Virus record (IMG/VR): IMGVR_UViG_3300037470_000665 | Span: 1-42,315 of that record | Direction: 5' to 3' (one strand) | Source of the DNA: a virus | Taxonomy: Duplodnaviria > Caudoviricetes | Length of the DNA stretch: 42,315 bases | In this document: piece after piece, positions 1-42,315 of the stretch | Layout of the letters: every line of letters begins with the position of its first letter | How positions within the stretch are numbered: the first letter of the stretch is position 1 | Translations under genes and position numbers: made by a program | The notes under the pieces: generated by a model | What the model was told of the DNA's origin: nothing | The model's input: only the letters and a program-made list of their open reading frames with translations | The model's database searches: none

Positions 1-216
1 ACGATCCGCGAGCTGCTCACCCTGGTTGACTACGGCCGATACAACCCGGCGATCGATATCGACCTGTTCCCCGAGTGCAAGGCGAACTGGTATTGGTCAG
101 TCACACCGTATGCGCCCTCCCCGGGCGGCTGCGCGTGGAGCGTCAGCTTCTACGACGGCGGCGCGGACTGGGGCTTCCGAGGCTACGGCGGGTTCGTTCG
201 CGCCGTGCGCGCCAGT
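1..216 (+). CDS. 5'-partial DUF1566 (Lcl C-terminal, CLec-fold) DGR target domain, continuing in frame into the RT
   Basis: Frame 1 reads TIRELLTLVDYGRYNPAIDIDLFPECKANWYWSVTPYAPSPGGCAWSVSFYDGGADWGFRGYGGFVRAVRAS with no stop before the RT; paralogous to 1409-1939 and 5188-5619. Confidence 0.9.
109..216 (+). repeat. DGR variable-repeat-like copy R0 (VR body with a TR/IMH*-like 3' end)
   Basis: Gapless alignment to 1826-1933 and 5506-5613; differences only at positions 1-2 of NNC codons; ends GCCAGTGAGTGT instead of GCCAGTCAGTAA. Confidence 0.9.
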
Positions 217-1398
217 GAGTGTCAGGGTGTCACGTTTCGCGAGCTCCACGCTGCCTGGCTTGAGGCCCGGCGCGGCAAGACGCCGTCCCGGGATCGCCTC
301 GAGTTCGAGCAAGCCTGGATCGACGGACTGCTCGATCTGCAGCAGTTACTGAACGCGCATCGATGGCAGCCGGCACCGCCGACCTGTTTCATCGCGACTC
401 GGCCGAAGGCGCGCGAGATCCATGCGCCGGCGTTCGCCGATCGCGTCGTGCACCACTGGCTGGTGCCCGTGCTCGAGCAGCTCTACGAGCCCGCCTTTAT
501 CTTCGACAGCTTCAGCAACCGGCGCGACAAAGGCACGCACGCCGCCGTCGATCGTCTGCAGGGCTTCGCCCGCCAGATTGGATCCGGCCAGGGCGGCGGC
601 TGGTACCTGCAGCTCGACATCCGGAACTTCTTCAACTCGATCTCGCGCCCGATCCTCTGGCGACAGCTCCGTCAACGGCTGGCGCGATCCGAGCTCGACG
701 AAACCTTTTGCCGGGCCGTGCACGCGCTGCTTCGGCATTCGCCGCTGCATCGCGGCGTCCGTTACGCCTGCCGGCCAGACGAGCGAGCCCTCGTGCCGGC
801 GCACAAGCGCCTGGCGAATGCAGCGCCCGGCTGCGGGATCGCGATCGGGAACCTCTCGTCGCAGTTTTTCGCAAACGTCTACCTCAACGCGCTCGATCAG
901 CACGTCAAGCACGCGCTGAAGGTCCGACGCTATGTCCGTTACGTCGACGACTTTGTCATCGTCGATGCCGATCGGGAGCGGCTCGTTGCAATCAAGTCAG
1001 CCATCGAACGCTTTCTGCACGATCACCTGCGCCTGGCCTTGAAGGCAGACGTCCGGCTGAAGCCGCTGACGTCCGGCATCGACTTCCTCGGCTACGTGAT
1101 CTGGCCGACGCATCGCGTTGCCCGTCGACGCGTGGTCGCACACTGCCGCGAGAAACTCAGCAGATGGCAGCGCCGGCATGTACGCGGTCGCCGTTTGATG
1201 GGTCGGCCTTCCGACTTCGCCGCGGTGCGATCGGTGTGGCAGAGCTACCTCGGCCATCTGTCTCACGCGAACAGCAAGCGGCTGATTGGCCGCCTGCACG
1301 ATGAATTCCCGTGGTTGCGGCGAGCCACGGCCAAAACGACTTTTGACTATCGCCTCGAGGGACGGACCGTCGTCCTTCTGGCATCCAGCCAACCATAG
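205..1398 (+). CDS. DGR-type reverse transcriptase
   Basis: Motifs KAREIHAPAFADRVVHH, LQLDIRNFFNSI, GIAIGNLSSQFFANVYL, YVRYVDDF, GIDFLGY; adjacent variable repeats; frame is open back to position 1. Confidence 0.95.
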   Translation: MRASECQGVTFRELHAAWLEARRGKTPSRDRLEFEQAWIDGLLDLQQLLNAHRWQPAPPTCFIATRPKAREIHAPAFADRVVHHWLVPVLEQLYEPAFIFDSFSNRRDKGTHAAVDRLQGFARQIGSGQGGGWYLQLDIRNFFNSISRPILWRQLRQRLARSELDETFCRAVHALLRHSPLHRGVRYACRPDERALVPAHKRLANAAPGCGIAIGNLSSQFFANVYLNALDQHVKHALKVRRYVRYVDDFVIVDADRERLVAIKSAIERFLHDHLRLALKADVRLKPLTSGIDFLGYVIWPTHRVARRRVVAHCREKLSRWQRRHVRGRRLMGRPSDFAAVRSVWQSYLGHLSHANSKRLIGRLHDEFPWLRRATAKTTFDYRLEGRTVVLLASSQP

Positions 1399-1408
1399 GG
1401 GGAAATCG

Positions 1409-1939
1409 ATGCAGACTTTGCAGGAGGAGCTTCGCCAGACGATAGAGCGCCGAGTGCACCAGGCGTCAGCGGATGAGATGACGCGGATTATCCTCGCGTT
1501 GATGATGGAGGACGAGATTGACCGGTCGCCCGATGAGCGGGGTGACACGGCGACCGACCGGTTCGAGCTCGCGCACCGCGATCAGGTTGTCATCGATCAG
1601 ATGACCGGGCTGATGTGGTCGCGCGCTGAGCTCACAACGGATCGGCTTAAATGGCCCGACGCGGATTCGCTCTGCCGGAATCTCGAGCTCGCGGGCTTCG
1701 ATGACTGGCGAATGCCGACCGTCGATGAACTGTTCGCCCTGGCTGACCGAACTCGATCTGACCCTGCGATCGACACTCGATTTTTTCCGGACTGCAAACC
1801 GAACTGGTACTGGTCGAGCACCCCGTATGCGCCCTCCCCGGGCGACTGCGCGTGGCTCGTCAGCTTCATCAACGGCGGCGCGAGCTGGAGCAGCCGAGGC
1901 TACGGCGGGTTCGTTCGCGCCGTGCGCGCCAGTCAGTAA
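1409..1939 (+). CDS. DUF1566/CLec DGR target protein 1
   Basis: ATG 1409 after GGGGG; motifs DQMTGLMW, LAGFDDWRMPTVDEL, WYWSST, FVRAVR; C-terminal VR. Confidence 0.92.
   Translation: MQTLQEELRQTIERRVHQASADEMTRIILALMMEDEIDRSPDERGDTATDRFELAHRDQVVIDQMTGLMWSRAELTTDRLKWPDADSLCRNLELAGFDDWRMPTVDELFALADRTRSDPAIDTRFFPDCKPNWYWSSTPYAPSPGDCAWLVSFINGGASWSSRGYGGFVRAVRASQ
1826..1939 (+). repeat. DGR variable repeat VR1
   Basis: 114-bp repeat at the gene 3' end with NNC-restricted variation relative to the other copies. Confidence 0.92.
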
Positions 1940-1971: not shown

Positions 1972-2388
1972 ATGGAACCCGAGTGCCTGTGCCGCCTGCC
2001 GGAGACGGCAGGCTATGCGTGTCCGGTTCATGACGCCGCCAGGGTAGGCGGCATTGCGGCACACCTGCCAGAACTCCTGACGGCCGACGAGGTCGCCGAT
2101 TACCTCGGCGTCTGCCGAGGTACCGTGCTACGCGCGGCCCGTGCTGGCAGGCTTCGCTCGACACGCGTCGGGCGGGGTTATAGATTCACGGTCGAGCAGA
2201 TCCTCGTCTACCTACAAGAACAACAGGAGGGCGCTTCATGCCGAAGCGAGACCCGCGCCGCGGGAAGATCGGCGCCTGGTGGCTCACCCGGAACCGACAC
2301 GGCGTCTGGAGTCGGACCTGGTGGGACAAGTCCCGTCAGCACACTGCCAGCACATCGCTTGGCACACGCGATTTTGACGAGGCGCTGA
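1972..2388 (+). CDS. Excisionase-family HTH DNA-binding protein
   Basis: LLTADEVADYLGVCRGTVLRAARAGRLRSTRVGRGYRF is HTH_17-like; overlaps the integrase start. Confidence 0.8.
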   Translation: MEPECLCRLPETAGYACPVHDAARVGGIAAHLPELLTADEVADYLGVCRGTVLRAARAGRLRSTRVGRGYRFTVEQILVYLQEQQEGASCRSETRAAGRSAPGGSPGTDTASGVGPGGTSPVSTLPAHRLAHAILTRR

Positions 2389-3398
2389 TGCTGCTTGCCA
2401 GGTGGATCGTCCTGAACGACCGTATCGACCACGAGCGTCCGGCCGACGTGCCGCTCTATTCCGTGCTCGATCGGTATCACGCGCATCACGCGAAGCCGAA
2501 CACGGCCCGCGGCGGCGAGGCCTCGGCGCTCGCGATCGCGAAGCTGAAAGACTTCTTCGAACCGAAGACAACAGTCGGCGACCTGAGCCTGGAGCGCCAG
2601 CGCGAGCTCGAGCTTTGGCTCAAGAGCAAAGGCTACGCCGACGGCTACATTGGCCGGATCCAGAGCACGCTCTCGGCCGCGGTGATGCGGAGCTATCGCG
2701 CCCAGGAGATCGAGTCGGCACCCTATGTCCGGGTCATCGGCAACACGCAGGAGCGCACGCGAATCCTGACGCCGAAGGAGGCGGCGGCGCTCTTTAACGC
2801 CGGGCCGCCCGATCACATCCTGATGCTGCTCCTGCTGCTGTTCAACACGCTATCGAGGCCCGGTGCCCTGCTCGAGCTCCAACCCTTCCAGATCGATTTC
2901 GAGCACCGCCTGATCGACCTGAATCCGCCCGGGCGGGCGCAGACGAAGAAGCGGCGTCCGATCCTCCCTATCTCCGACACGCTCCTGCCGTGGCTCCAGG
3001 CGCGCCGCAAGCAGCGCTACCTCGTCCAGTGGCACGAGGCGCAGGCCCGACCGATCGGCAGCGTCAAGAAGACCTGGCGGCGCTTGCGGGGCGATGCGGC
3101 GAAGCTCCTCAAGGCAGCCGATCCTGACCACCCAGGCATGGACGACGTCATCCCCTACACGATCCGGCACACGATGGCGACGGAGCTCCGCCGCCGCGGC
3201 TGTCCTGAGTGGGAGGTTGCCGGCTTCCTAGGCCACCGGATGGGCCGATCCGGCACGACCGAGCGTTATGCCAAGTTCGCGCCCGACTACCTGAGCAAGG
3301 CAGCGACGGCGATTGACGACTACATGAACGAGCTCCAGCCGCTGGTGAAGCGGGAGCTGATCACGAACGTGACGCCGCTCAAGGGGAGGAAGGCGTGA
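2238..3398 (+). CDS. int: Tyrosine recombinase (phage integrase)
   Basis: Catalytic pattern SRPGALLEL (R), YTIRH (HxxR variant), FLGH, ERYAK (Y); tRNA-derived att site downstream. Confidence 0.92.
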   Translation: MPKRDPRRGKIGAWWLTRNRHGVWSRTWWDKSRQHTASTSLGTRDFDEALMLLARWIVLNDRIDHERPADVPLYSVLDRYHAHHAKPNTARGGEASALAIAKLKDFFEPKTTVGDLSLERQRELELWLKSKGYADGYIGRIQSTLSAAVMRSYRAQEIESAPYVRVIGNTQERTRILTPKEAAALFNAGPPDHILMLLLLLFNTLSRPGALLELQPFQIDFEHRLIDLNPPGRAQTKKRRPILPISDTLLPWLQARRKQRYLVQWHEAQARPIGSVKKTWRRLRGDAAKLLKAADPDHPGMDDVIPYTIRHTMATELRRRGCPEWEVAGFLGHRMGRSGTTERYAKFAPDYLSKAATAIDDYMNELQPLVKRELITNVTPLKGRKA

Positions 3399-3822: not shown

Positions 3823-3869
3823 TGGTAGGCGCGATTGGTTTCGAACCAACGACCCCCACGATGTCAACG
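3823..3869 (-). other. att core: 3' half of tRNA-Val(GAC)
   Basis: Minus strand CGTTGACATCGTGGGGGTCGTTGGTTCGAAACCAATCGCGCCTACCA gives the anticodon loop (GAC), T arm, acceptor 3' strand and CCA, about 430 bp downstream of int. Confidence 0.88.
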
Positions 3870-3932
3870 CGGGGGCATCCCAGAAGTCATGCGCCTTCCC
3901 GAGGTCATAGCGTATCCAATCGTGACACTCGG

Positions 3933-4053: not shown

Positions 4054-4923
4054 ATGCCTGACGATAGACTGACGACCCTGCCGCTCGACCGCATCGAGCT
4101 GTCCCGGACCGCCGCCCAGGTTGCCCGCCGCAAACGATTTGACGCCGCGGCCCTGAGCGATCTCGCTGACAGCATGCGCCAATACGGGGTGCTGCAGCCG
4201 ATCATTTGCCGCTCGACCGCGACGGATTACGAGCTGGTCGCCGGCGAGCGCCGTTACCTCGCGGCGAAGCAGGCAGGGCTCGCCCAAATCCCGGCCGTCG
4301 TTCGATCGCTGTCGGACGCGGCGGTGATCGAGGTGCAGCTGATCGAGAACCTGCAGCGCGCCGACGTGCACCCGATGGAGGAGGCGGAGGGCTACCAGCA
4401 GCTGATGAAGCAGCACGGCCACCCGATCGAGGAACTGCACACGAAGGTCGGCAAGAGTCGCAGTTACGTCTACGGGCGGCTGAAGCTGCTCGACCTGTGC
4501 AAGCAGGCCCGCAATGCGTTCTACGATGGCAAGCTGTCGGCCTCGATCTCGCTGCTGGTCGCTCGGATCCCGGGCGAGGCGCTGCAGAAGCAGGCGCTCG
4601 ATCGGGTCCTCGGCGGGCATTTCAGGCAACCGATGAGTTATCGCGACGCGAGCGATTGGATTCAGCACGAGCTCATGCTCCGCCTGAAGGACGCCCCCTT
4701 CCCGACTGACGACGTCCTGCTCGACGATCAGGCGGGGCCGTGCACCACCTGCCCGAAGCGGACCGGCAATCAGCCGGAACTGTTTGGCGATATCCAGGGT
4801 GCAGACGTCTGCACAGATCCGGCGTGCCACAAGGGCAAACTGGTGGCCTGGGGCGAAAGACTCCTCGAGGCGGCCGAGGGGCGCGGTCAGAAAGTCATTG
4901 CCGGCCCCTCAACCTTACACTGA
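4054..4923 (+). CDS. ParB/RepB/Spo0J-family protein, probably C-terminally truncated
   Basis: GVLQPIICR, ELVAGERRYLA, QLIENLQRADVHPMEEAEGY, HTH and a CxxCPKR motif. Confidence 0.85.
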   Translation: MPDDRLTTLPLDRIELSRTAAQVARRKRFDAAALSDLADSMRQYGVLQPIICRSTATDYELVAGERRYLAAKQAGLAQIPAVVRSLSDAAVIEVQLIENLQRADVHPMEEAEGYQQLMKQHGHPIEELHTKVGKSRSYVYGRLKLLDLCKQARNAFYDGKLSASISLLVARIPGEALQKQALDRVLGGHFRQPMSYRDASDWIQHELMLRLKDAPFPTDDVLLDDQAGPCTTCPKRTGNQPELFGDIQGADVCTDPACHKGKLVAWGERLLEAAEGRGQKVIAGPSTLH

Positions 4924-5187: not shown

Positions 5188-5619
5188 ATGAACGAACGCT
5201 ATTTGAGAATCGGCCCGGATGGTGAGGCGATGACGTCCGACGCGCCGAAGTGGGTTGCGGTGAAGGATACCGTGACGGGCCTGACCTGGGCCGTTGAATC
5301 AATCAGGGTAGAGGACTGGTCGGAAGACACCGAGGCGAGAATCGCCGTCGCGCTCGAGGCATCGCGCCTGGCTGGCCTGGATGGCTGGCGGATCCCGACG
5401 CGCGCTGAACTCGTTACGCTGATCGATGACACACGGTACGGGCCGGCGATCGATATCGCAGCCTTCCCCGACTGCCCGAGCGATTGGTTCTGGACGTCAA
5501 CCGTGTATGCGCCCTCCCCGGGCGACTGCGCGTGGCTCGTCTCCTTCTACTACGGCTTCGCGTACTGGGGCTACCGAGACTACTACGGGTTCGTTCGCGC
5601 CGTGCGCGCCAGTCAGTAA
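5188..5619 (+). CDS. DUF1566/CLec DGR target protein 2
   Basis: DTVTGLTW, LAGLDGWRIPTRAEL, WFWTST, FVRAVR; AAGGA SD; C-terminal VR. Confidence 0.92.
   Translation: MNERYLRIGPDGEAMTSDAPKWVAVKDTVTGLTWAVESIRVEDWSEDTEARIAVALEASRLAGLDGWRIPTRAELVTLIDDTRYGPAIDIAAFPDCPSDWFWTSTVYAPSPGDCAWLVSFYYGFAYWGYRDYYGFVRAVRASQ
5506..5619 (+). repeat. DGR variable repeat VR2
   Basis: 114-bp copy with NNC-restricted variation, Tyr-rich. Confidence 0.92.
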
Positions 5620-7350: not shown

Positions 7351-7584
7351 ATGATGAACAAGACAGTAGACAGCACGAGCGATGAGCGGACGGTGAACAA
7401 CGTGATGCGGCACGAGTACCGCGTGCTCTCCGATCGGGAGAAGGCCGACATGCAGGCCGTGAAGGATCTCGGCAAGCAGCTATGGGACTACCTCGACAGC
7501 CTCACACCGTCGCGCGAAGTCAGCCTAGCCAAGACGAAGGCCGAGGAATCCGTCATGTGGGGCGTGAAGCATATAACCGGCTAG
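7351..7584 (+). CDS. Acb2/Tad1-like small helical protein (candidate nucleotide-signal sponge)
   Basis: YRVLSDREKADMQAVKDLG resembles the Acb2 YRDLSQEE...RVKELG pattern; SREVSLAKTKAEESVMW; AGGAG SD. Confidence 0.6.
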   Translation: MMNKTVDSTSDERTVNNVMRHEYRVLSDREKADMQAVKDLGKQLWDYLDSLTPSREVSLAKTKAEESVMWGVKHITG

Positions 7585-7770
7585 GCAATGAGCCGTAACA
7601 CCGACCAACGCATCAAAGAGCTCGAGCGTGCCTGCATTATGCTTCGGTGCGAGCGGGACGGCGCCAGGCAGGAACTTGTGAGCCATGGGCTCGAAGTGCC
7701 GCAAGGCTTAACAGAAGCCGTCCCGGACGGATATATGACGTGTGGGTGGTGTGGTGGCCGTCTTCCGGAT

Positions 7771-8237
7771 GGGAATTACATACTTGAGTCCCTGCATCAT
7801 GGGCACTCGTTGAAAATGTGGCGAATCATCGACCTGCCACACTTAGCGCAGACCTCTGACGGCCATCCACTATCGCTGGCTTCAGAATCCGGCGCGGCCC
7901 ATTCTGGTACTACCCATTCATGATCGCAGCCCTTGTGTGGGTCCGGTTCTGTTGTGTCCATTTTGTCCATTTTGTTTCCTTCGAATGGCTGCCCCGACAG
8001 GGGCCGGATTAGACCGGACCCCGCCGAGGACTTACGCGCTCGCTGCGACGGACCTCGCTCCCAGTGGCCACTCCGGTGTCCGCGCACGTCTGCGTCGGGC
8101 CGGCTACAGAGTCCGCTCCACCCCACTGGAGGTTGCGGACGGTATGCCTTGAGCACGGGCGTGCCGGTGATCGGCCGGCTACCCGCTTGAGGTCCTTTAT
8201 GGATTCGATGATCGAGGGACTCAAGTATGTAATTCCC
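7771..8237. mobile_element. 467-bp non-autonomous IS-derived element (MITE/MIC), IS1595-like
   Basis: Perfect 23-bp TIRs GGGAATTACATACTTGAGTCCCT (7771-7793 and 8215-8237); 8-bp TSD TTCCGGAT (7763-7770 and 8238-8245); no transposase. Confidence 0.88.
7797..7970 (-). CDS. Small passenger ORF in the MITE (57 aa, Cys/His motifs)
   Basis: AAGGA SD; MDKMDTTEPDPHKGCDHEW...VCAKCG...ECP. Confidence 0.55.
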   Translation of the reverse strand: MDKMDTTEPDPHKGCDHEWVVPEWAAPDSEASDSGWPSEVCAKCGRSMIRHIFNECP

Positions 8238-8472
8238 TTCCGGATGGGTCACGGTCAGACCGGGAGTACTGCTCCCGGCAATGCCGGCGGTCAGCCTGGG
8301 AGGCTGCGGCCCACGAGGGGCGGGTGGCGAGCGTCAGGAAGCTCAAGAGCGGGAAGCTGAGCGTCGTGGTCCACGCCGAGCGGGATTTCGGGATCCTGCC
8401 CGGGCAGTTGGTCAGGATCGGATAGATCAGTTTTCGACGCCCAGAAGATCGCTGCACGGCCTAGCGGGGAAA

Positions 8473-8907
8473 CTACGGCGCGTCCCTCTCCGCAACAATA
8501 ATAGCGTCGAGCGCCGCATTCTGAGTTCGCAGCCGTCTGACCTTTCCGGACAGTAGCAATACGTCTGCCCCGGTCCATGTTTCGGGACGATTGTCGCGGC
8601 GAAATTCGAGCGATGCGATCTCGTCCTCGAGTTCTGCGATCAGAGACTCAATCATTACCTTGATCCCGGCATTCGTCGGGGCGATTTGCTTAGAGACCTC
8701 TGCGGCAATCTCGTCTGCTACAGCGATACCGATAATATCGACGATTCTGGGCGAGATCAGGAAGCCCACGGCCGGTAAGATGACAACACAGATACCAATC
8801 GTTGACGCAAGCGTCGATAGCATGGCAGTTTTTCGGTGTCTCTTCTTATGAGCAGCTATCTCGTCCGGGTTCGGTTGTCGCCGCTCAATCGTGGTCTGGT
8901 GTTCCAT
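8473..8907 (-). CDS. Hypothetical membrane-anchored coiled-coil protein
   Basis: One hydrophobic segment followed by a helical region; coupled to the upstream stop. Confidence 0.65.
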   Translation of the reverse strand: MEHQTTIERRQPNPDEIAAHKKRHRKTAMLSTLASTIGICVVILPAVGFLISPRIVDIIGIAVADEIAAEVSKQIAPTNAGIKVMIESLIAELEDEIASLEFRRDNRPETWTGADVLLLSGKVRRLRTQNAALDAIIVAERDAP

Positions 8908-10100
8908 TATGATTCCCTTGTGTTGGCAGCGATTTCCGTCAGTAACTCAATAATGCGGTCAGTCTTGTCAGTGACAATCGGCGGGATTGGTTGCAGGACA
9001 GGCTCACTCGGCGCTGTTGCTTCCCAAAGCCTTCGAAGCAGTGCCATCTTGTCCTCGCGGGGGTTCAGATCGTCGTCGAGAATGCCACCGGTGTCGTCGG
9101 AGTTCGGCGTGTAGCACCAGTAGAAGCTCGAGCCCATACCCTTGCTGACCAGGTACTCGACCAGCGCGTCCTGCCAGGCTTCGTCCGCGCTGCCAGGCCG
9201 GTAGCGCCCGCCCCATTCGCCGAGCACAACGGCGTTCGCGCCGTGAAACCTGCCGAACAGGGTTTCCCAATCCGCCTGCAGGTTCGCCGGAAAGGTTGCC
9301 GCGCCGAAGGTCGATTTGCCGAACACGTCCGGTCCGTAAGTGTGCGGGGAGAGCACGAGCTTGTCGGCGGGAATATCGAGCGGATCGTAAGCCTGCGGCT
9401 GGAACGATTCTCCAAAGTTCATCGGTATCGAGCTGTTGTCGCGGCCGTCCCAGTTTCCTTGGATTCCTTGAGCGAACACCAAAAGATTCGGGTTAGCTGA
9501 CAGGACCGCAGCCGCCGCAGCTTCGGCCGCTGGCTTCCAGTAGTAAGCCGGGTCGGTCATGTTCCGATCACCGGCAGACCACCGCACCCTACCGTGCGGT
9601 TCGTTGTAGAGGTCGAGAGCAAAGAAATGCGACAGGTGGGCGTACCGATTCGCTACGAACACTAGGTCGCGAATCCAGTCGGCTTGCGTGTATTCATTGC
9701 CGTCGTGGGTCAGCGGAAAGTCAGCAGGGTTCGACACGAACCACGTCGGATATAGACGGCGATTCGTCACGCTGTGGAAGTCGAGTAGAACGTACAGCCC
9801 AAGCCGATCCGCCTCCGCCATCCACAAATCAAGAACTTGCAGCGGCGTTCGTCCGATCAGCTCGGGATTCAGCCGCGCGTCACTGTAGCCGGCCACTGGG
9901 AAGTAAAGAGTCGCTGGCACGAACGGCACGCGGACCGCGTTGAAACCAAGGGTTCGAATATGGGCGATCTGTGCTTTCCAGCCCATCGCCCACAAGAACT
10001 GCGGGATCAGGATATCGGCGTTGAAACCGAACGCCGACACGCCTCTCAGTTGAATTTCCTGGCCGTCCTCGTAAATTTTTCCAGCACTTATGGTGTACAT
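8907..10100 (-). CDS. Glycoside hydrolase family 5 (cellulase/endoglucanase-like)
   Basis: FNAVRVPF, LLDFH, YNEPH (acid/base), LSPHTYGPDV, LGEWGG (nucleophile), FYWCYTPNSDDTGGIL. Confidence 0.92.
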   Translation of the reverse strand: MYTISAGKIYEDGQEIQLRGVSAFGFNADILIPQFLWAMGWKAQIAHIRTLGFNAVRVPFVPATLYFPVAGYSDARLNPELIGRTPLQVLDLWMAEADRLGLYVLLDFHSVTNRRLYPTWFVSNPADFPLTHDGNEYTQADWIRDLVFVANRYAHLSHFFALDLYNEPHGRVRWSAGDRNMTDPAYYWKPAAEAAAAAVLSANPNLLVFAQGIQGNWDGRDNSSIPMNFGESFQPQAYDPLDIPADKLVLSPHTYGPDVFGKSTFGAATFPANLQADWETLFGRFHGANAVVLGEWGGRYRPGSADEAWQDALVEYLVSKGMGSSFYWCYTPNSDDTGGILDDDLNPREDKMALLRRLWEATAPSEPVLQPIPPIVTDKTDRIIELLTEIAANTRES

Positions 10101-37985: not shown

Positions 37986-40649
37986 TCACGGATTGTCCAG
38001 CGCCTCCATCGCGATGCAGATCGAGTTCGTGGCCGGCTGCCAGCGGCAGAAATTGCGCCACATCGTCGATATCGCCTTATTGACAAACACATCAGAGCCA
38101 GTCATGTCGGACTCGGGTACGGCAAGCAGACCGGCCGCGCAGTCGTCGTTCACGGTGGGATCGCAGTTGACCTGCGCGACGGTCGGGTACACATAGGGCG
38201 GTGTCCCGAAATCCGATGACAGGATTCGCTCGCCGGTATCGCCGCCATCAAACTCCGCGAACACGTTGTCGCGGGTTGCCTGATAGAGCGGCGGCATCGC
38301 GGAGTCTAGCGGTCGAGGTCCAGCCTCGTTGGCTAACAGTTTCGAAAAGTCTTCAATGTCACTGGTAGTGCAATTAAACGTTGTTGCCTCGTATCCACCC
38401 GGCTCTGCCGTCGCGATCCGAGTGCCGACCGCGTTCAGCAGTCCTGCCGAATAATCGGCCGGGACAATGGCGTTAACGGACCCGCCTGCCTCTGTCCACT
38501 CGCAGTTGCCGATCTGGTAGGCGTCGAACTCGCTGAGGCACTCGCCGTTCTGTGGATGGCAAAATCTGATAATCTGCGTTTCGTCAATCGTCGCCAGACT
38601 GTCGTCGCCGCGAATGCTCGCGTTGTAGCGGAGGTTCAGATCCCGGCCGGTCGACTGATAGTTGATGTCGATTTCGGACAGCCGGTTATTAACGCAAATG
38701 TTGTTGTCGATGTGGCCGTTCATCGCGTTCCATTTCGGGCAGCGCAGCGTGCCGTGCGCCGACAGATTTCTAACAAATGTGCCGTTGTTCGAATCCCCGG
38801 AATCGTGGCCGAGCAGATATAGCTGCTGAAGGGCTTGCCCCGGCGTTTCGAGTGGCAACGTATTCAGGTTGCCGATCAGTCCGAATTCCGTTGTGTCGTG
38901 GAACACATTGAGCCATCCGTCGCCGGCAAACGCACCGCCGCTGTACAGCACGAGAATGTGATCGTTCGGTTCGCTGGCGGTCCCGTTGATGTTGAAACAG
39001 TGTGCCGGCCCCTGCTGCGCGTTGTAGTTGTTGAAGCATCCGTAGTACAGCCAGAGCTGATAGCTCGCACTCCTCGGTTGAACATTCAAATCGGTTTTCG
39101 TGTACCCACCCGATGGGCAAGTCGATAGGTCCACAATCAACCGATCTGTGTTAACGACAAGGGTCGTTCCCGACACGTGATCGCTAACCCCCGACACCGC
39201 ACACGCGCAGTACTGCCACTCGTCGGCCGGACGCTGCGTCGTCACGCACTGCGAGAAAGATCCGGCGCCGGACTGATTCAGATTCGTGAACTCAGCGTAG
39301 TGGATGGTGCCAAACTCGTAATCGGTTGCGGCTTCGCCCCAGCCGTCAGCACCGTAGCTCGCAATGCCCGGGATGATCGAGTCGGTCGGCGACATTGTCA
39401 TCCACGAAAACCCGGCGTCGGCATCGAGGATCGTGATCGTAGCAACCAGCCCTTTGCTCGGACCGAGGGTATCGGGGCAGGAGTTGTCGGATGCGACCAG
39501 TGTGAACGTTCGGTTGCCCTGCTGCTGGCCGTCGAGATCCGTAATCGAGACCGCGACCGACTGGGTGCCCGCCTCAGCGTCATCCCAATGGACGACCTCA
39601 GAAACTGCCGTGAAGTGAGTCGCTGCGCTGGCAGACCCGTTGGCTGAGACCACGTTGACATCGCACGCGCCGGCTGCGCCGCCAAACCGTTCGAGCGACA
39701 CATTCAGCGACGCGGTTTCCTCGCTGACCTGATAGCTGATGAGGTCCCACTCGATGGACCCGATATCCGGATTGTGATCGAGCGCCCCGGTAGCGATATC
39801 GATTTGATCAAACAATCCGCCGGCAGTCGTCCCTGCACTGCCCGAGGCGGCAGCCAATAACACCAGGGGAGTGCTGCCGCTCGCGGCCCAGTCGGAAAAA
39901 AACTGGTAGCGAGCCGTGTACGTGCCGGTCGAGCAGTCCGTTGCATCGCCTTTCTGAAGCAGCTTGACGCTTTGGAGGGCGCGATCGACCTGTATCTGCA
40001 AACACTCCGGCACCGGCATCTGGGGAGCAGCGAAATACGCGGTTGACGTTTCTCCGTCCGTCACTGATCGACAATCGATGATCGTCCCGCTGTTGCGAAA
40101 ACTGCCGAGCACGCAATGCTCCGATCCGTCGGCAGAGCTTTCCCGCAGCATGATCCCGATCTTCGAGAGAATGTCCTGGGTCTGCGTCGCGGTCACAAGC
40201 CGCGCCGTTATCGTGTAATCGCTCGTGCTGTCGAGCGTGATGCCGCAGGCAGCGAAACTGTCATCGTTGTTGTAGATCACGCCGCCAGTCGACTGCACGA
40301 CGAACGGCTCCGCATCGCATTCCAGCACCGCATCGGTGTGCGGCGCCGTAGCGCCGAGAATCTCGACCGGCCCCCAGGTTGCGGCCTCGGCTGCCGGCGG
40401 ATCGTTCAGCACCGGAACGAACAAGCTCTGAGCGTCTGCCGTCGGAATCCAGCCTTCAAAAATGTTGAACGCCTTGCAATCTCTGCTCGCCCAATTTCCG
40501 GCGCGGGTCTCGAGCAGGATCCGCTCGCCAGTCTCGCGCAAACAGCTCTCAGCTCCACCCGGCAGCTCATCGCGAGCCCATTGCCCGAGCACGGCCGCGG
40601 CGAACAGGAGCAAGACGGATGCGCCGATGGCGCGGAATAGTCGGTTCAA
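37986..40649 (-). CDS. Large exported multidomain protein: ConA-like, Calx-beta and pectate-lyase-like beta-helix domains
   Basis: Signal peptide; TITARL...KIGIMLRES; YQVSEE...VSLER...ANGSA...WDDAE; TNLNQSGAGSF...VSG PL1-like start; 26 Cys. Confidence 0.72.
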   Translation of the reverse strand: MNRLFRAIGASVLLLFAAAVLGQWARDELPGGAESCLRETGERILLETRAGNWASRDCKAFNIFEGWIPTADAQSLFVPVLNDPPAAEAATWGPVEILGATAPHTDAVLECDAEPFVVQSTGGVIYNNDDSFAACGITLDSTSDYTITARLVTATQTQDILSKIGIMLRESSADGSEHCVLGSFRNSGTIIDCRSVTDGETSTAYFAAPQMPVPECLQIQVDRALQSVKLLQKGDATDCSTGTYTARYQFFSDWAASGSTPLVLLAAASGSAGTTAGGLFDQIDIATGALDHNPDIGSIEWDLISYQVSEETASLNVSLERFGGAAGACDVNVVSANGSASAATHFTAVSEVVHWDDAEAGTQSVAVSITDLDGQQQGNRTFTLVASDNSCPDTLGPSKGLVATITILDADAGFSWMTMSPTDSIIPGIASYGADGWGEAATDYEFGTIHYAEFTNLNQSGAGSFSQCVTTQRPADEWQYCACAVSGVSDHVSGTTLVVNTDRLIVDLSTCPSGGYTKTDLNVQPRSASYQLWLYYGCFNNYNAQQGPAHCFNINGTASEPNDHILVLYSGGAFAGDGWLNVFHDTTEFGLIGNLNTLPLETPGQALQQLYLLGHDSGDSNNGTFVRNLSAHGTLRCPKWNAMNGHIDNNICVNNRLSEIDINYQSTGRDLNLRYNASIRGDDSLATIDETQIIRFCHPQNGECLSEFDAYQIGNCEWTEAGGSVNAIVPADYSAGLLNAVGTRIATAEPGGYEATTFNCTTSDIEDFSKLLANEAGPRPLDSAMPPLYQATRDNVFAEFDGGDTGERILSSDFGTPPYVYPTVAQVNCDPTVNDDCAAGLLAVPESDMTGSDVFVNKAISTMWRNFCRWQPATNSICIAMEALDNP

Positions 40650-41979: not shown

Positions 41980-42194
41980 GCCGCCATCCTCAGGATCATC
42001 TCGTTCGTGGCCCAGAGCAGATATTCCTCGGTGCCGAAGCGTTCTTCGAAGGCCCGCTTCTCAAGCGCAAGACTTGGTCCGAAGTACCGGGCCGCCCTGC
42101 TTGCATCGATCTGCCGGCCGGTCCGGTCGGTCGGCGGAATGCCGCGGTGATACCAGCACGAAAGACAAATCGTGTGCTGATGCTCGTCTTCGTA
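41976..42194 (-). pseudogene. C-terminal fragment of a Ref-like (RecA-dependent) nuclease, cut by an IS end
   Basis: HQHTICLSCWYHRG...GPSLALEKRAFEERFGTEEYLL; the frame meets TAA inside the TIR. Confidence 0.6.
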
Positions 42195-42195
42195 A

Positions 42196-42315
42196 GGGAA
42201 TTACATACATGAGTCCCCAACCTCCCACCGTAGCTTGCGTTGCGTCGGGTGCTCATCCACTCGGGGCCTGGCTTGCCGCGACCAGGACCCGCCGCCCGCC
42301 TCGCCAACGAGCTTG
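42196..42315. mobile_element. End of a second IS1595-like element running off the window
   Basis: GGGAATTACATACATGAGTCCC (42196-42217) matches the MITE TIR at 21/22 positions. Confidence 0.75.

What the first reader, a model, noticed from the sequence alone, without database searches (positions are those of the whole stretch)
1..1398. DGR reverse transcriptase fused in frame to a diversified CLec target domain, with no template repeat or avd visible
Seen: frame 1 is stop-free from 1 to 1398. A DUF1566 domain and its variable repeat run straight into the RT (...FVRAVRAS-ECQGVTFRELHAAW...). The repeat at 109-216 sits where the TR would be expected and has a distinct 3' end (GCCAGTGAGTGT). It is not a template: it has G/T at variable sites where the other copies have A (GGC vs GAC, GAC vs AAC). 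Known: DGRs need an adenine-rich TR, an RT and usually Avd. Inference, three options: (a) a real target-RT fusion in which the RT carries a diversified ligand-binding domain, served by a TR elsewhere; (b) a real VR x TR recombination through the shared 28-bp 3' constant tract that deleted avd and TR and froze the system; (c) an assembly jump at that tract.
Basis: partly seen in the sequence, partly recalled or inferred. Interest (0 to 1): 0.85.

Follow-up and report, generated by a model that had tools for sequence, protein, structure and literature searches.

The report
Collapsed phage DGR: target welded to RT
In this phage a once-variable ligand-binding gene runs in frame into the reverse transcriptase of its hypermutation cassette, most likely because a real deletion of about 640 bases removed the helper gene and the template; similar joins recur in unrelated relatives, so this is likely a dead cassette rather than a new enzyme.

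Summary
Observation confirmed. Frame 1 is open over 1-1398 (Lcl_C/DUF1566, then RVT_1). R0 has variable-repeat (VR) letters but a template-repeat (TR) tail, and neither avd nor a TR was found in the window.

The frame is no coincidence. In 94 of 104 intact relatives the RT frame starts at an ATGA overlapping the upstream (avd-position) stop and runs through the TR. An in-silico VR x TR collapse gives this same fusion in 82 of 102.

An independent assembly of the probable source run has one contig over 187-1854 with no differences. It starts on VR letters, beyond the 28-bp shared tract, which argues against an assembly jump.

Six other Lcl_C-RT fusions exist. With the window's they need at least 5 changes on the RT tree; 0 of 270 RT loci fetched were fused. 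A sister phage lost the same core by a different deletion (avd joined to the RT tail), bridged in two other runs.

Verdict: recurrent deletion scar of a known CLec2 DGR type, most likely inactive. The scan has reported similar collapses on other DNA.

The parts
1..216 (+). 3' part of DGR target gene T0 (Lcl_C/DUF1566, CLec2-type). Its 5' end lies off the contig; the sister gene has 72 more codons, so the full fusion would be about 537 aa.
   Evidence: Pfam; 88.6% identity to L085 4829-5048; length estimate
109..216 (+). R0, variable-repeat-type sequence (17 of 24 TR adenines replaced)
189..216 (+). 28-bp constant tract shared by VR and the inferred TR; inferred crossover zone
   Evidence: last variable codon is Asn in the closest intact RTs P0001/P0002
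217..228 (+). TR-type 3' tail (IMH*-like) in place of the VR tail and stop codon
   Evidence: first 6 nt match the L047 and L292 TR tails; peptide ASECQGVTFR is identical to intact P0001
223..1398 (+). DGR reverse transcriptase core, YVDD at 940-951 intact
1409..1939 (+). Target gene T1 (Lcl_C) with VR R1 at 1826-1933, normal VR tail and stop
5188..5619 (+). Target gene T2 (Lcl_C) with VR R2 at 5506-5613, normal VR tail and stop

Best explanation
The target gene T0 and the RT form one open frame, most likely because a real deletion between the direct repeats VR and TR removed about 640 bp (the target's stop, avd, the RT start codon and the TR), leaving a DGR that likely cannot diversify anything on its own. 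Shown: the chimeric VR/TR repeat, no avd or TR in the window, the family layout target-VR-avd-TR-RT with the TR read in frame into the RT, support for the junction in an independent k-mer assembly, and recurrence of the same join. Inferred: the crossover fell in the 28-bp constant tract, by homology-driven recombination or slippage. Also inferred: the fusion has no selected role, and T0, T1 and T2 are frozen at their last variants unless an intact sister DGR acts in trans.
For: (1) Layout: 114 of 127 relatives at >=50% RT identity have an adenine-polarised TR directly before the RT core; 7 showed no repeat, 4 lay at an edge, 2 fell outside the cut-off. The VR-TR distance is 550-750 bp in 113 of 114, median 636. 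(2) Frame: 94 of 104 distinct loci have an in-frame ATGA overlapping the stop of an upstream ORF of >=90 codons, against 0 of 104 in the other two frames. In-silico collapse gives an in-frame Lcl-RT ORF in 82 of 102. (3) Reads: one X1 contig covers 187-1854 with 0 differences at depth 27.8, starting on the VR-type GG at 187-188. (4) Recurrence: P0008, P0046, P0079, P0094, P0122 and P0123 are fused at the same spot. With the window they need at least 5 changes on a 125-row tree, and fused P0123 pairs with unfused P0121. 0 of 270 fetched loci with the RT motif are fused, and 0 of the 41 fetched with P0094. (5) Decay context: sister L085 lost the core by a different avd x RT deletion, bridged with 0 differences in X4 and X5. 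The window's parB is 289 aa against 528 aa in the sister, cut at a short direct repeat. (6) Avd and TR are required in BPP-1 (PMC12875486, passages).
Against: Only one run (X1, probably the source sample) supports this junction. It does so as contigs, not raw reads, so no single read linking R0's inner codons to the RT was seen. 80 of 113 intact relatives share >=30 exact bases between VR and TR, so some of the other six fusions could be assembly jumps; their DNA could not be fetched. The RT keeps YVDD and deviates at only 3 of 127 conserved columns (unfused mean 1.35, maximum 7). The RT tail shows 18 synonymous against 7 nonsynonymous codon differences from the sister, so the RT shows no decay yet; this fits a young deletion but also a still-useful RT. 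Fusions are somewhat clustered on the tree (2 of 500 shuffles as low). About a third of the genome is missing, and a TR could lie there.
Confidence: 0.8

Rival explanations
1. Assembly jump: the phage has an intact VR-avd-TR-RT cassette and the assembler skipped from VR to TR at the shared tract.
For: The contig begins only 188 bp before the tract. X1 holds at least six related VR-bearing contigs (depths 20, 33, 33.4, 23.2, 20.3 and 34.9 sum to the 164.8 seen). Exact VR/TR runs of >=30 nt are common in this family (80 of 113).
Against: A separate assembly (Logan; word size 31 is recalled, consistent with the 30-nt contig overlaps) gives an RT contig that starts with GG at 187-188 followed by the TR-type G at 217. 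That 31-letter word spans the 28-bp tract. A jump would need a TR with GGC in its last variable codon, but R2 has TAC, sisters have AAC, TAC or AGC, and the closest intact RTs read Asn there. None of the six contigs has the TR's AA at L085 4967-4968 (my decoding of depths).
Confidence: 0.08
2. Retrohoming accident: a mutagenised cDNA annealed to the VR at one end and to the TR tail at the other and bridged the deletion, so the DGR excised its own core.
For: In all 7 fusions the repeat is VR-like up to the last or second-last variable codon and TR-like after it (protein level). With a phage annealase, DGR cDNA can recombine into the TR itself (bioRxiv 2025.03.24.644984, passages).
Against: The same 3' position is expected from plain recombination, because the longest perfect match lies there. 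The same preprint reports RT-independent TR-VR recombination. The sister's avd x RT deletion and the parB deletion use short repeats unrelated to the TR.
Confidence: 0.07
3. Functional fusion: the CLec-RT protein is made and used, served by a TR and Avd elsewhere, with the lectin domain replacing the TR-encoded N-terminus.
For: The ORF is intact, with YVDD. The fusion would be expressed from the target's start. RTs of this clade appear to carry a TR-encoded N-terminal extension already. Four fusions with different VR sequences occur in one narrow RT clade.
Against: There is no fusion clade, and fused and unfused forms sit in one 90% cluster. R0 has lost the VR tail that sets directionality in BPP-1 (PMC3240598, passages). 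No TR was found in G000-G003, though these records are 67, 100, 37 and 45% complete. A complete sister (G001) keeps one target with no RT at all.
Confidence: 0.05

Closest known systems
DGRs with CLec2/DUF1566 ('category d') targets, including multi-target phage and Stenotrophomonas cassettes (Wu et al. 2018, PMC5758913; Yan et al. 2019, PMC6642488; passages read)
   Same: Short stand-alone DUF1566/Lcl_C targets with C-terminal VRs, several targets per cassette, DGR-class RT
   Different: No avd or TR in the window; first target fused to the RT. The words 'fused' and 'fusion' do not occur in the main text of either paper.
DiGReF structural group 3, TR overlapping the annotated RT ORF (Schillinger et al. 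2012, PMC3521204, section 13 read)
   Same: Intact relatives have the TR inside the 5' end of the RT ORF, which is why the collapse is in frame
   Different: Here the TR position holds a VR. That section does not mention the ATGA overlap with the avd stop seen in 94 of 104 loci.
Bordetella phage BPP-1 DGR (mtd-VR-IMH, avd, TR-IMH*, sp, brt)
   Same: Gene order of the inferred ancestor, and distinct VR and TR tails
   Different: BPP-1 has a spacer between TR and brt (PMC12875486) and a tail-fibre target. Here the RT core starts a few codons after the TR, and the targets are 143-176 aa proteins next to the integrase, away from the tail genes.
IMGVR_UViG_3300009609_000031 (L047/G004), intact cousin
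   Same: Target-VR-avd-TR-RT, second target, parB; near-identical repeat consensus
   Different: Retains the 144-aa Avd (weak bAvd match, E 9.7e-7, below the cut-off) and a TR with 24 adenines

Membership tests
Functional DGR | DGR-class RT with intact catalytic motif | tested here: met
   RVT_1; YVDD; 57-70% identity to RTs of intact DGRs
Functional DGR | Adenine-rich TR | tested here: not met
   None in the 42,315-bp record; record estimated 67% complete
Functional DGR | Avd accessory gene | tested here: not met
   No tblastn hit with L047 Avd at E<=1; no hit with the sister's avd stub
Functional DGR | Target genes with VRs that differ from the TR at adenines | tested here: met
   R0, R1 and R2 differ from the L047 TR at 17, 14 and 16 adenines, out of 23, 20 and 23 mismatches; most of the rest are lineage differences shared by all three
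Functional DGR | VR ends in IMH distinct from the TR's IMH* | tested here: not met
   Not met for R0 (TR-type tail); met for R1 and R2. The IMH label is by analogy to BPP-1.
Functional DGR | Ongoing A-to-N diversification in the population | not testable with these tools
   Only contigs were available; two T0 alleles (33x and 20x) occur in X1 but may be different phage variants
CLec2/DUF1566-target DGR (Wu category d) | VR overlaps DUF1566/Lcl_C at the C-terminus | tested here: met
DiGReF group 3 (TR overlaps RT ORF) | TR within the 5' end of the RT ORF | tested here: inconclusive
   True of intact relatives; in the window the TR is gone and only its tail remains
A stable CLec-RT fusion family (hypothetical) | Fused proteins form a clade | tested here: not met
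   7 fused rows need at least 5 changes; fused P0123 pairs with unfused P0121

The most novel reading that the evidence does not exclude
VR x TR collapse is a built-in one-way off switch of this DGR clade. The element's own cDNA excises avd and TR once good target variants exist, and because the TR is coded in frame with the RT the product is a CLec-RT protein. Sister phages in one sediment population would then be freezing their multi-gene ligand-binding repertoires by independent routes under selection.
Probability: 0.1. Interest if true: 0.65.

Novelty: new member of a known kind. Interest (0 to 1): 0.24.

Why it matters
As a scar, it shows one way DGRs are lost. It also warns that DUF1566+RT 'fusion proteins' in databases (6 among 124 RT homologues here) are likely collapse products, not a new RT class. 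The more useful by-product is the clade's architecture: the RT frame begins at the avd stop and runs through the TR, in two different frames. The template therefore probably doubles as RT coding sequence, and any RNA element that recruits the RT would lie within the RT gene. If the collapse proved RT-dependent, it would reveal a self-limiting step in mutagenic retrohoming.

Tried and rejected
- R0 as a degenerate TR: rejected. It keeps only 7 of 24 TR adenines and is preceded by Lcl_C coding sequence, not avd.
- The in-frame join as a sign of selection: rejected.
- X1 shows depth 0 over the sister's avd start (L085 5057-5077), where X4 and X5 show 13x. X3 also shows 0 there, so this hole is not used as evidence.
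- A TR contig would sit near the likeness thresholds used (about 81% to the L085 VR and 85% to R1, my count), so its absence is weak on its own.
- Search with aa 1-72 among proteins of 255-814 aa: 18 candidates, none significant; uninformative, since one search then found fusions.
- Exact tract search in metagenome contigs: 0 hits. Viral scans found only G001-G003 sisters and two intact cousins. No intact DGR of the immediate sister group was found.
- Folding downstream of the VRs gave a clear hairpin only after R2; not pursued.
- The first Avd translation, was out of frame and was redone.
- The regex classes are rough: 2 loci and 2 proteins in the CLec frame were mislabelled, and 11 of 281 loci lacked the RT motif and could not be classed.
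- Literature: searches and word look-ups in nine papers showed no description of natural target-RT fusions. Supplements were not read; those of Wu 2018 and Roux 2021 may bear on this.
- No structure or complex prediction was run, as neither would separate the hypotheses.

Full report
Setting. The window is a whole 42,315-bp linear virus record, estimated 67% complete. It is a temperate tailed phage with terminase, lambda-type portal, major capsid E, tape measure, tail genes and an integrase. It starts inside a gene. Its closest RT relatives in the genome collection are mostly Gammaproteobacteria, many of them Xanthomonadales; a host of that kind is inference only. The 12 runs listed for the stretch are all sediment metagenomes, and only X1 holds most of it (0.95).

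Observation. Frame 1 is open from 1 to 1395, with Lcl_C at aa 1-70 and RVT_1 at aa 136-346. Three repeats share an exact 25-nt tract, never seen in 100 shuffles: R0 (109-216), R1 (1826-1933, in the 176-aa target T1) and R2 (5506-5613, in the 143-aa target T2). Against the real TR of an intact cousin (L047), R0 has lost 17 of 24 adenines, like the other VRs, yet it ends in the TR tail rather than the VR tail and stop. Neither Avd nor a TR is in the record. R0 is therefore a VR 5' / TR 3' chimera.

What the intact form looks like. I fetched 240 loci with the RT core. Of 127 at >=50% identity, 114 have an adenine-polarised TR just before the RT core; 7 showed no repeat, 4 lay at an edge and 2 missed the cut-off. 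The nearest upstream VR lies 550-750 bp away in 113 of 114, median 636. L047 shows the layout in full: target, VR, stop, avd, TR, RT, then a second target and parB. After dropping 10 duplicates, the RT frame is open for at least 45 codons upstream in 102 of 104 loci. In 94 it contains an ATGA whose TGA ends an upstream ORF of >=90 codons; the same test in the two other frames gives 0. In L047 that upstream ORF is Avd; in the others I did not test its identity. In most loci the TR is read in the lectin frame. In 3 loci and 13 proteins it is read in a shifted frame while the ATG stays in frame with the RT, which suggests (inference) that this start is real. A TR overlapping the annotated RT ORF is a known DGR layout (group 3 of PMC3521204, section 13). 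As a result, a VR x TR crossover gives an in-frame Lcl_C-RT ORF in 82 of 102 intact loci in silico. The frame needs no selection.

Is the junction real? Logan contigs of X1 include one record covering 187-1854 with no differences at depth 27.8. It begins with GG at 187-188. R2 has TAC in that codon, sisters have AAC, TAC or AGC, and the closest intact RTs, P0001 and P0002, read Asn. The lost TR therefore most likely had AAC, and the VR/TR exact match is 28 nt (189-216). A word of 31 letters holding VR letters on the left and the TR letter on the right cannot come from graph collapse at 28 nt; the word size is recalled and fits the 30-nt overlaps seen. Six X1 contigs cover the middle of the repeat, their depths sum to the 164.8 observed, and by my decoding none has the TR's adenines. 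The 33x one matches R0. All are target-type, so whichever feeds the RT, the RT follows a VR. Limits: X1 is probably the source sample, these are contigs and not reads, and a TR contig would lie near the likeness thresholds. The other runs cover the RT 5' part thinly and show nothing at the junction.

Recurrence. The whole-ORF search listed 120 proteins. With cluster members, 124 RT cores were aligned, and 6 carry a full Lcl_C domain fused at the same point. This search favours fusions. Among 281 loci fetched (240 by the RT core, 41 by P0094; some duplicated), 270 had the RT motif and none was fused. On the tree the 7 fused rows need at least 5 changes, and fused P0123 pairs with unfused P0121; there is mild clustering (2 of 500 shuffles as low) from one group of four. 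I could not see their DNA. Since 80 of 113 intact loci share >=30 exact bases between VR and TR, some may be assembly jumps.

A lineage that keeps losing its DGR. A close sister (L085, G003) has the same T0 with a normal VR tail, followed by about 45 codons of avd joined in frame to the last 94 or so codons of the RT. Single contigs bridge this join with 0 differences in X4 and X5. G003 has further Lcl_C genes upstream (6 non-TR matches) and no TR. A complete sister, G001, has one target and no RT. The window's parB is 289 aa against 528 aa in L085, cut at a short direct repeat. The RT tail differs between the window and L085 at 18 synonymous and 7 nonsynonymous codons, and the window RT deviates at 3 of 127 conserved columns. 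The RT was under constraint until recently, so both deletions are probably young; this does not exclude a residual use.

Mechanism. Most likely, recombination or slippage between the two direct repeats, crossing in their longest perfect match, removed the target stop, avd, the RT start and the TR (0.8). In BPP-1, loss of Avd or TR reduces activity to background (PMC12875486, passages), and the VR tail sets directionality (PMC3240598, passages). The cassette is therefore likely dead and R0 likely no longer a target. BPP-1 recipients lacking avd, TR and brt can be served in trans, so T1 and T2 could still be rewritten by a co-resident intact sister; none was found. Rivals: assembly jump (0.08), cDNA-bridged self-excision (0.07), functional fusion (0.05).

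Known and new. It descends from a CLec2/DUF1566 multi-target DGR (PMC5758913, PMC6642488; passages) but fails the TR, Avd and IMH tests for a working DGR. I found no paper describing natural target-RT fusions (searches; passages of nine papers, one section read in full, no supplements). Earlier notes of this scan report similar DGR collapses in other genomes (unchecked) and none on look-alike DNA. Verdict: real, explained, mostly ordinary decay; interest 0.24.

Noticed in passing
L001-L080, L090-L249, about 200 bp upstream of the RT core: The RT frame starts at an ATGA overlapping the upstream (avd-position) stop and runs through the TR in 94 of 104 loci, against 0 in control frames. In L002-L004 and 13 proteins the TR is read in a shifted, Thr-rich frame, which suggests the template doubles as RT coding sequence.
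   Followed up: partly
L085 5074-5487: Sister phage with an avd N-terminus fused in frame to the RT C-terminus by a different deletion; bridged in runs X4 and X5.
   Followed up: yes
L085 3167-6030 and 11019-11685: Several Lcl_C genes, one broken, in the apparent early operon after the immunity region. These DGR targets are small proteins away from the tail genes; their function was not addressed.
   Followed up: no
window 4054-4923: parB-like gene shortened to 289 aa against 528 aa in L085, by a deletion of about 900 bp at a short direct repeat near 4899-4908; the join itself was not seen in the listed contigs.
   Followed up: partly
window 7351-7584: Acb2/Tad1-family anti-defence protein (PF24729, E 1e-18).
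   Followed up: no
window 2238-3398 and 3823-3896: Tyrosine integrase followed by a tRNA-Val(GAC) call on the minus strand, a possible attachment site; L085 carries a different integrase at this place.
   Followed up: no
window 7764-7800, 8208-8244, 42191-42217: 37-bp inverted repeat pair 407 bp apart (92%), with a third partial copy near the contig end; unexplained.
   Followed up: no
window 8907-10100 (-) and 37986-40649 (-): GH5 cellulase-family gene near the tail genes, and an 887-aa Calx-beta protein.
   Followed up: no
G001 (L081): Complete 41-kb sister genome with one Lcl_C target bearing a family VR but no RT.
   Followed up: partly
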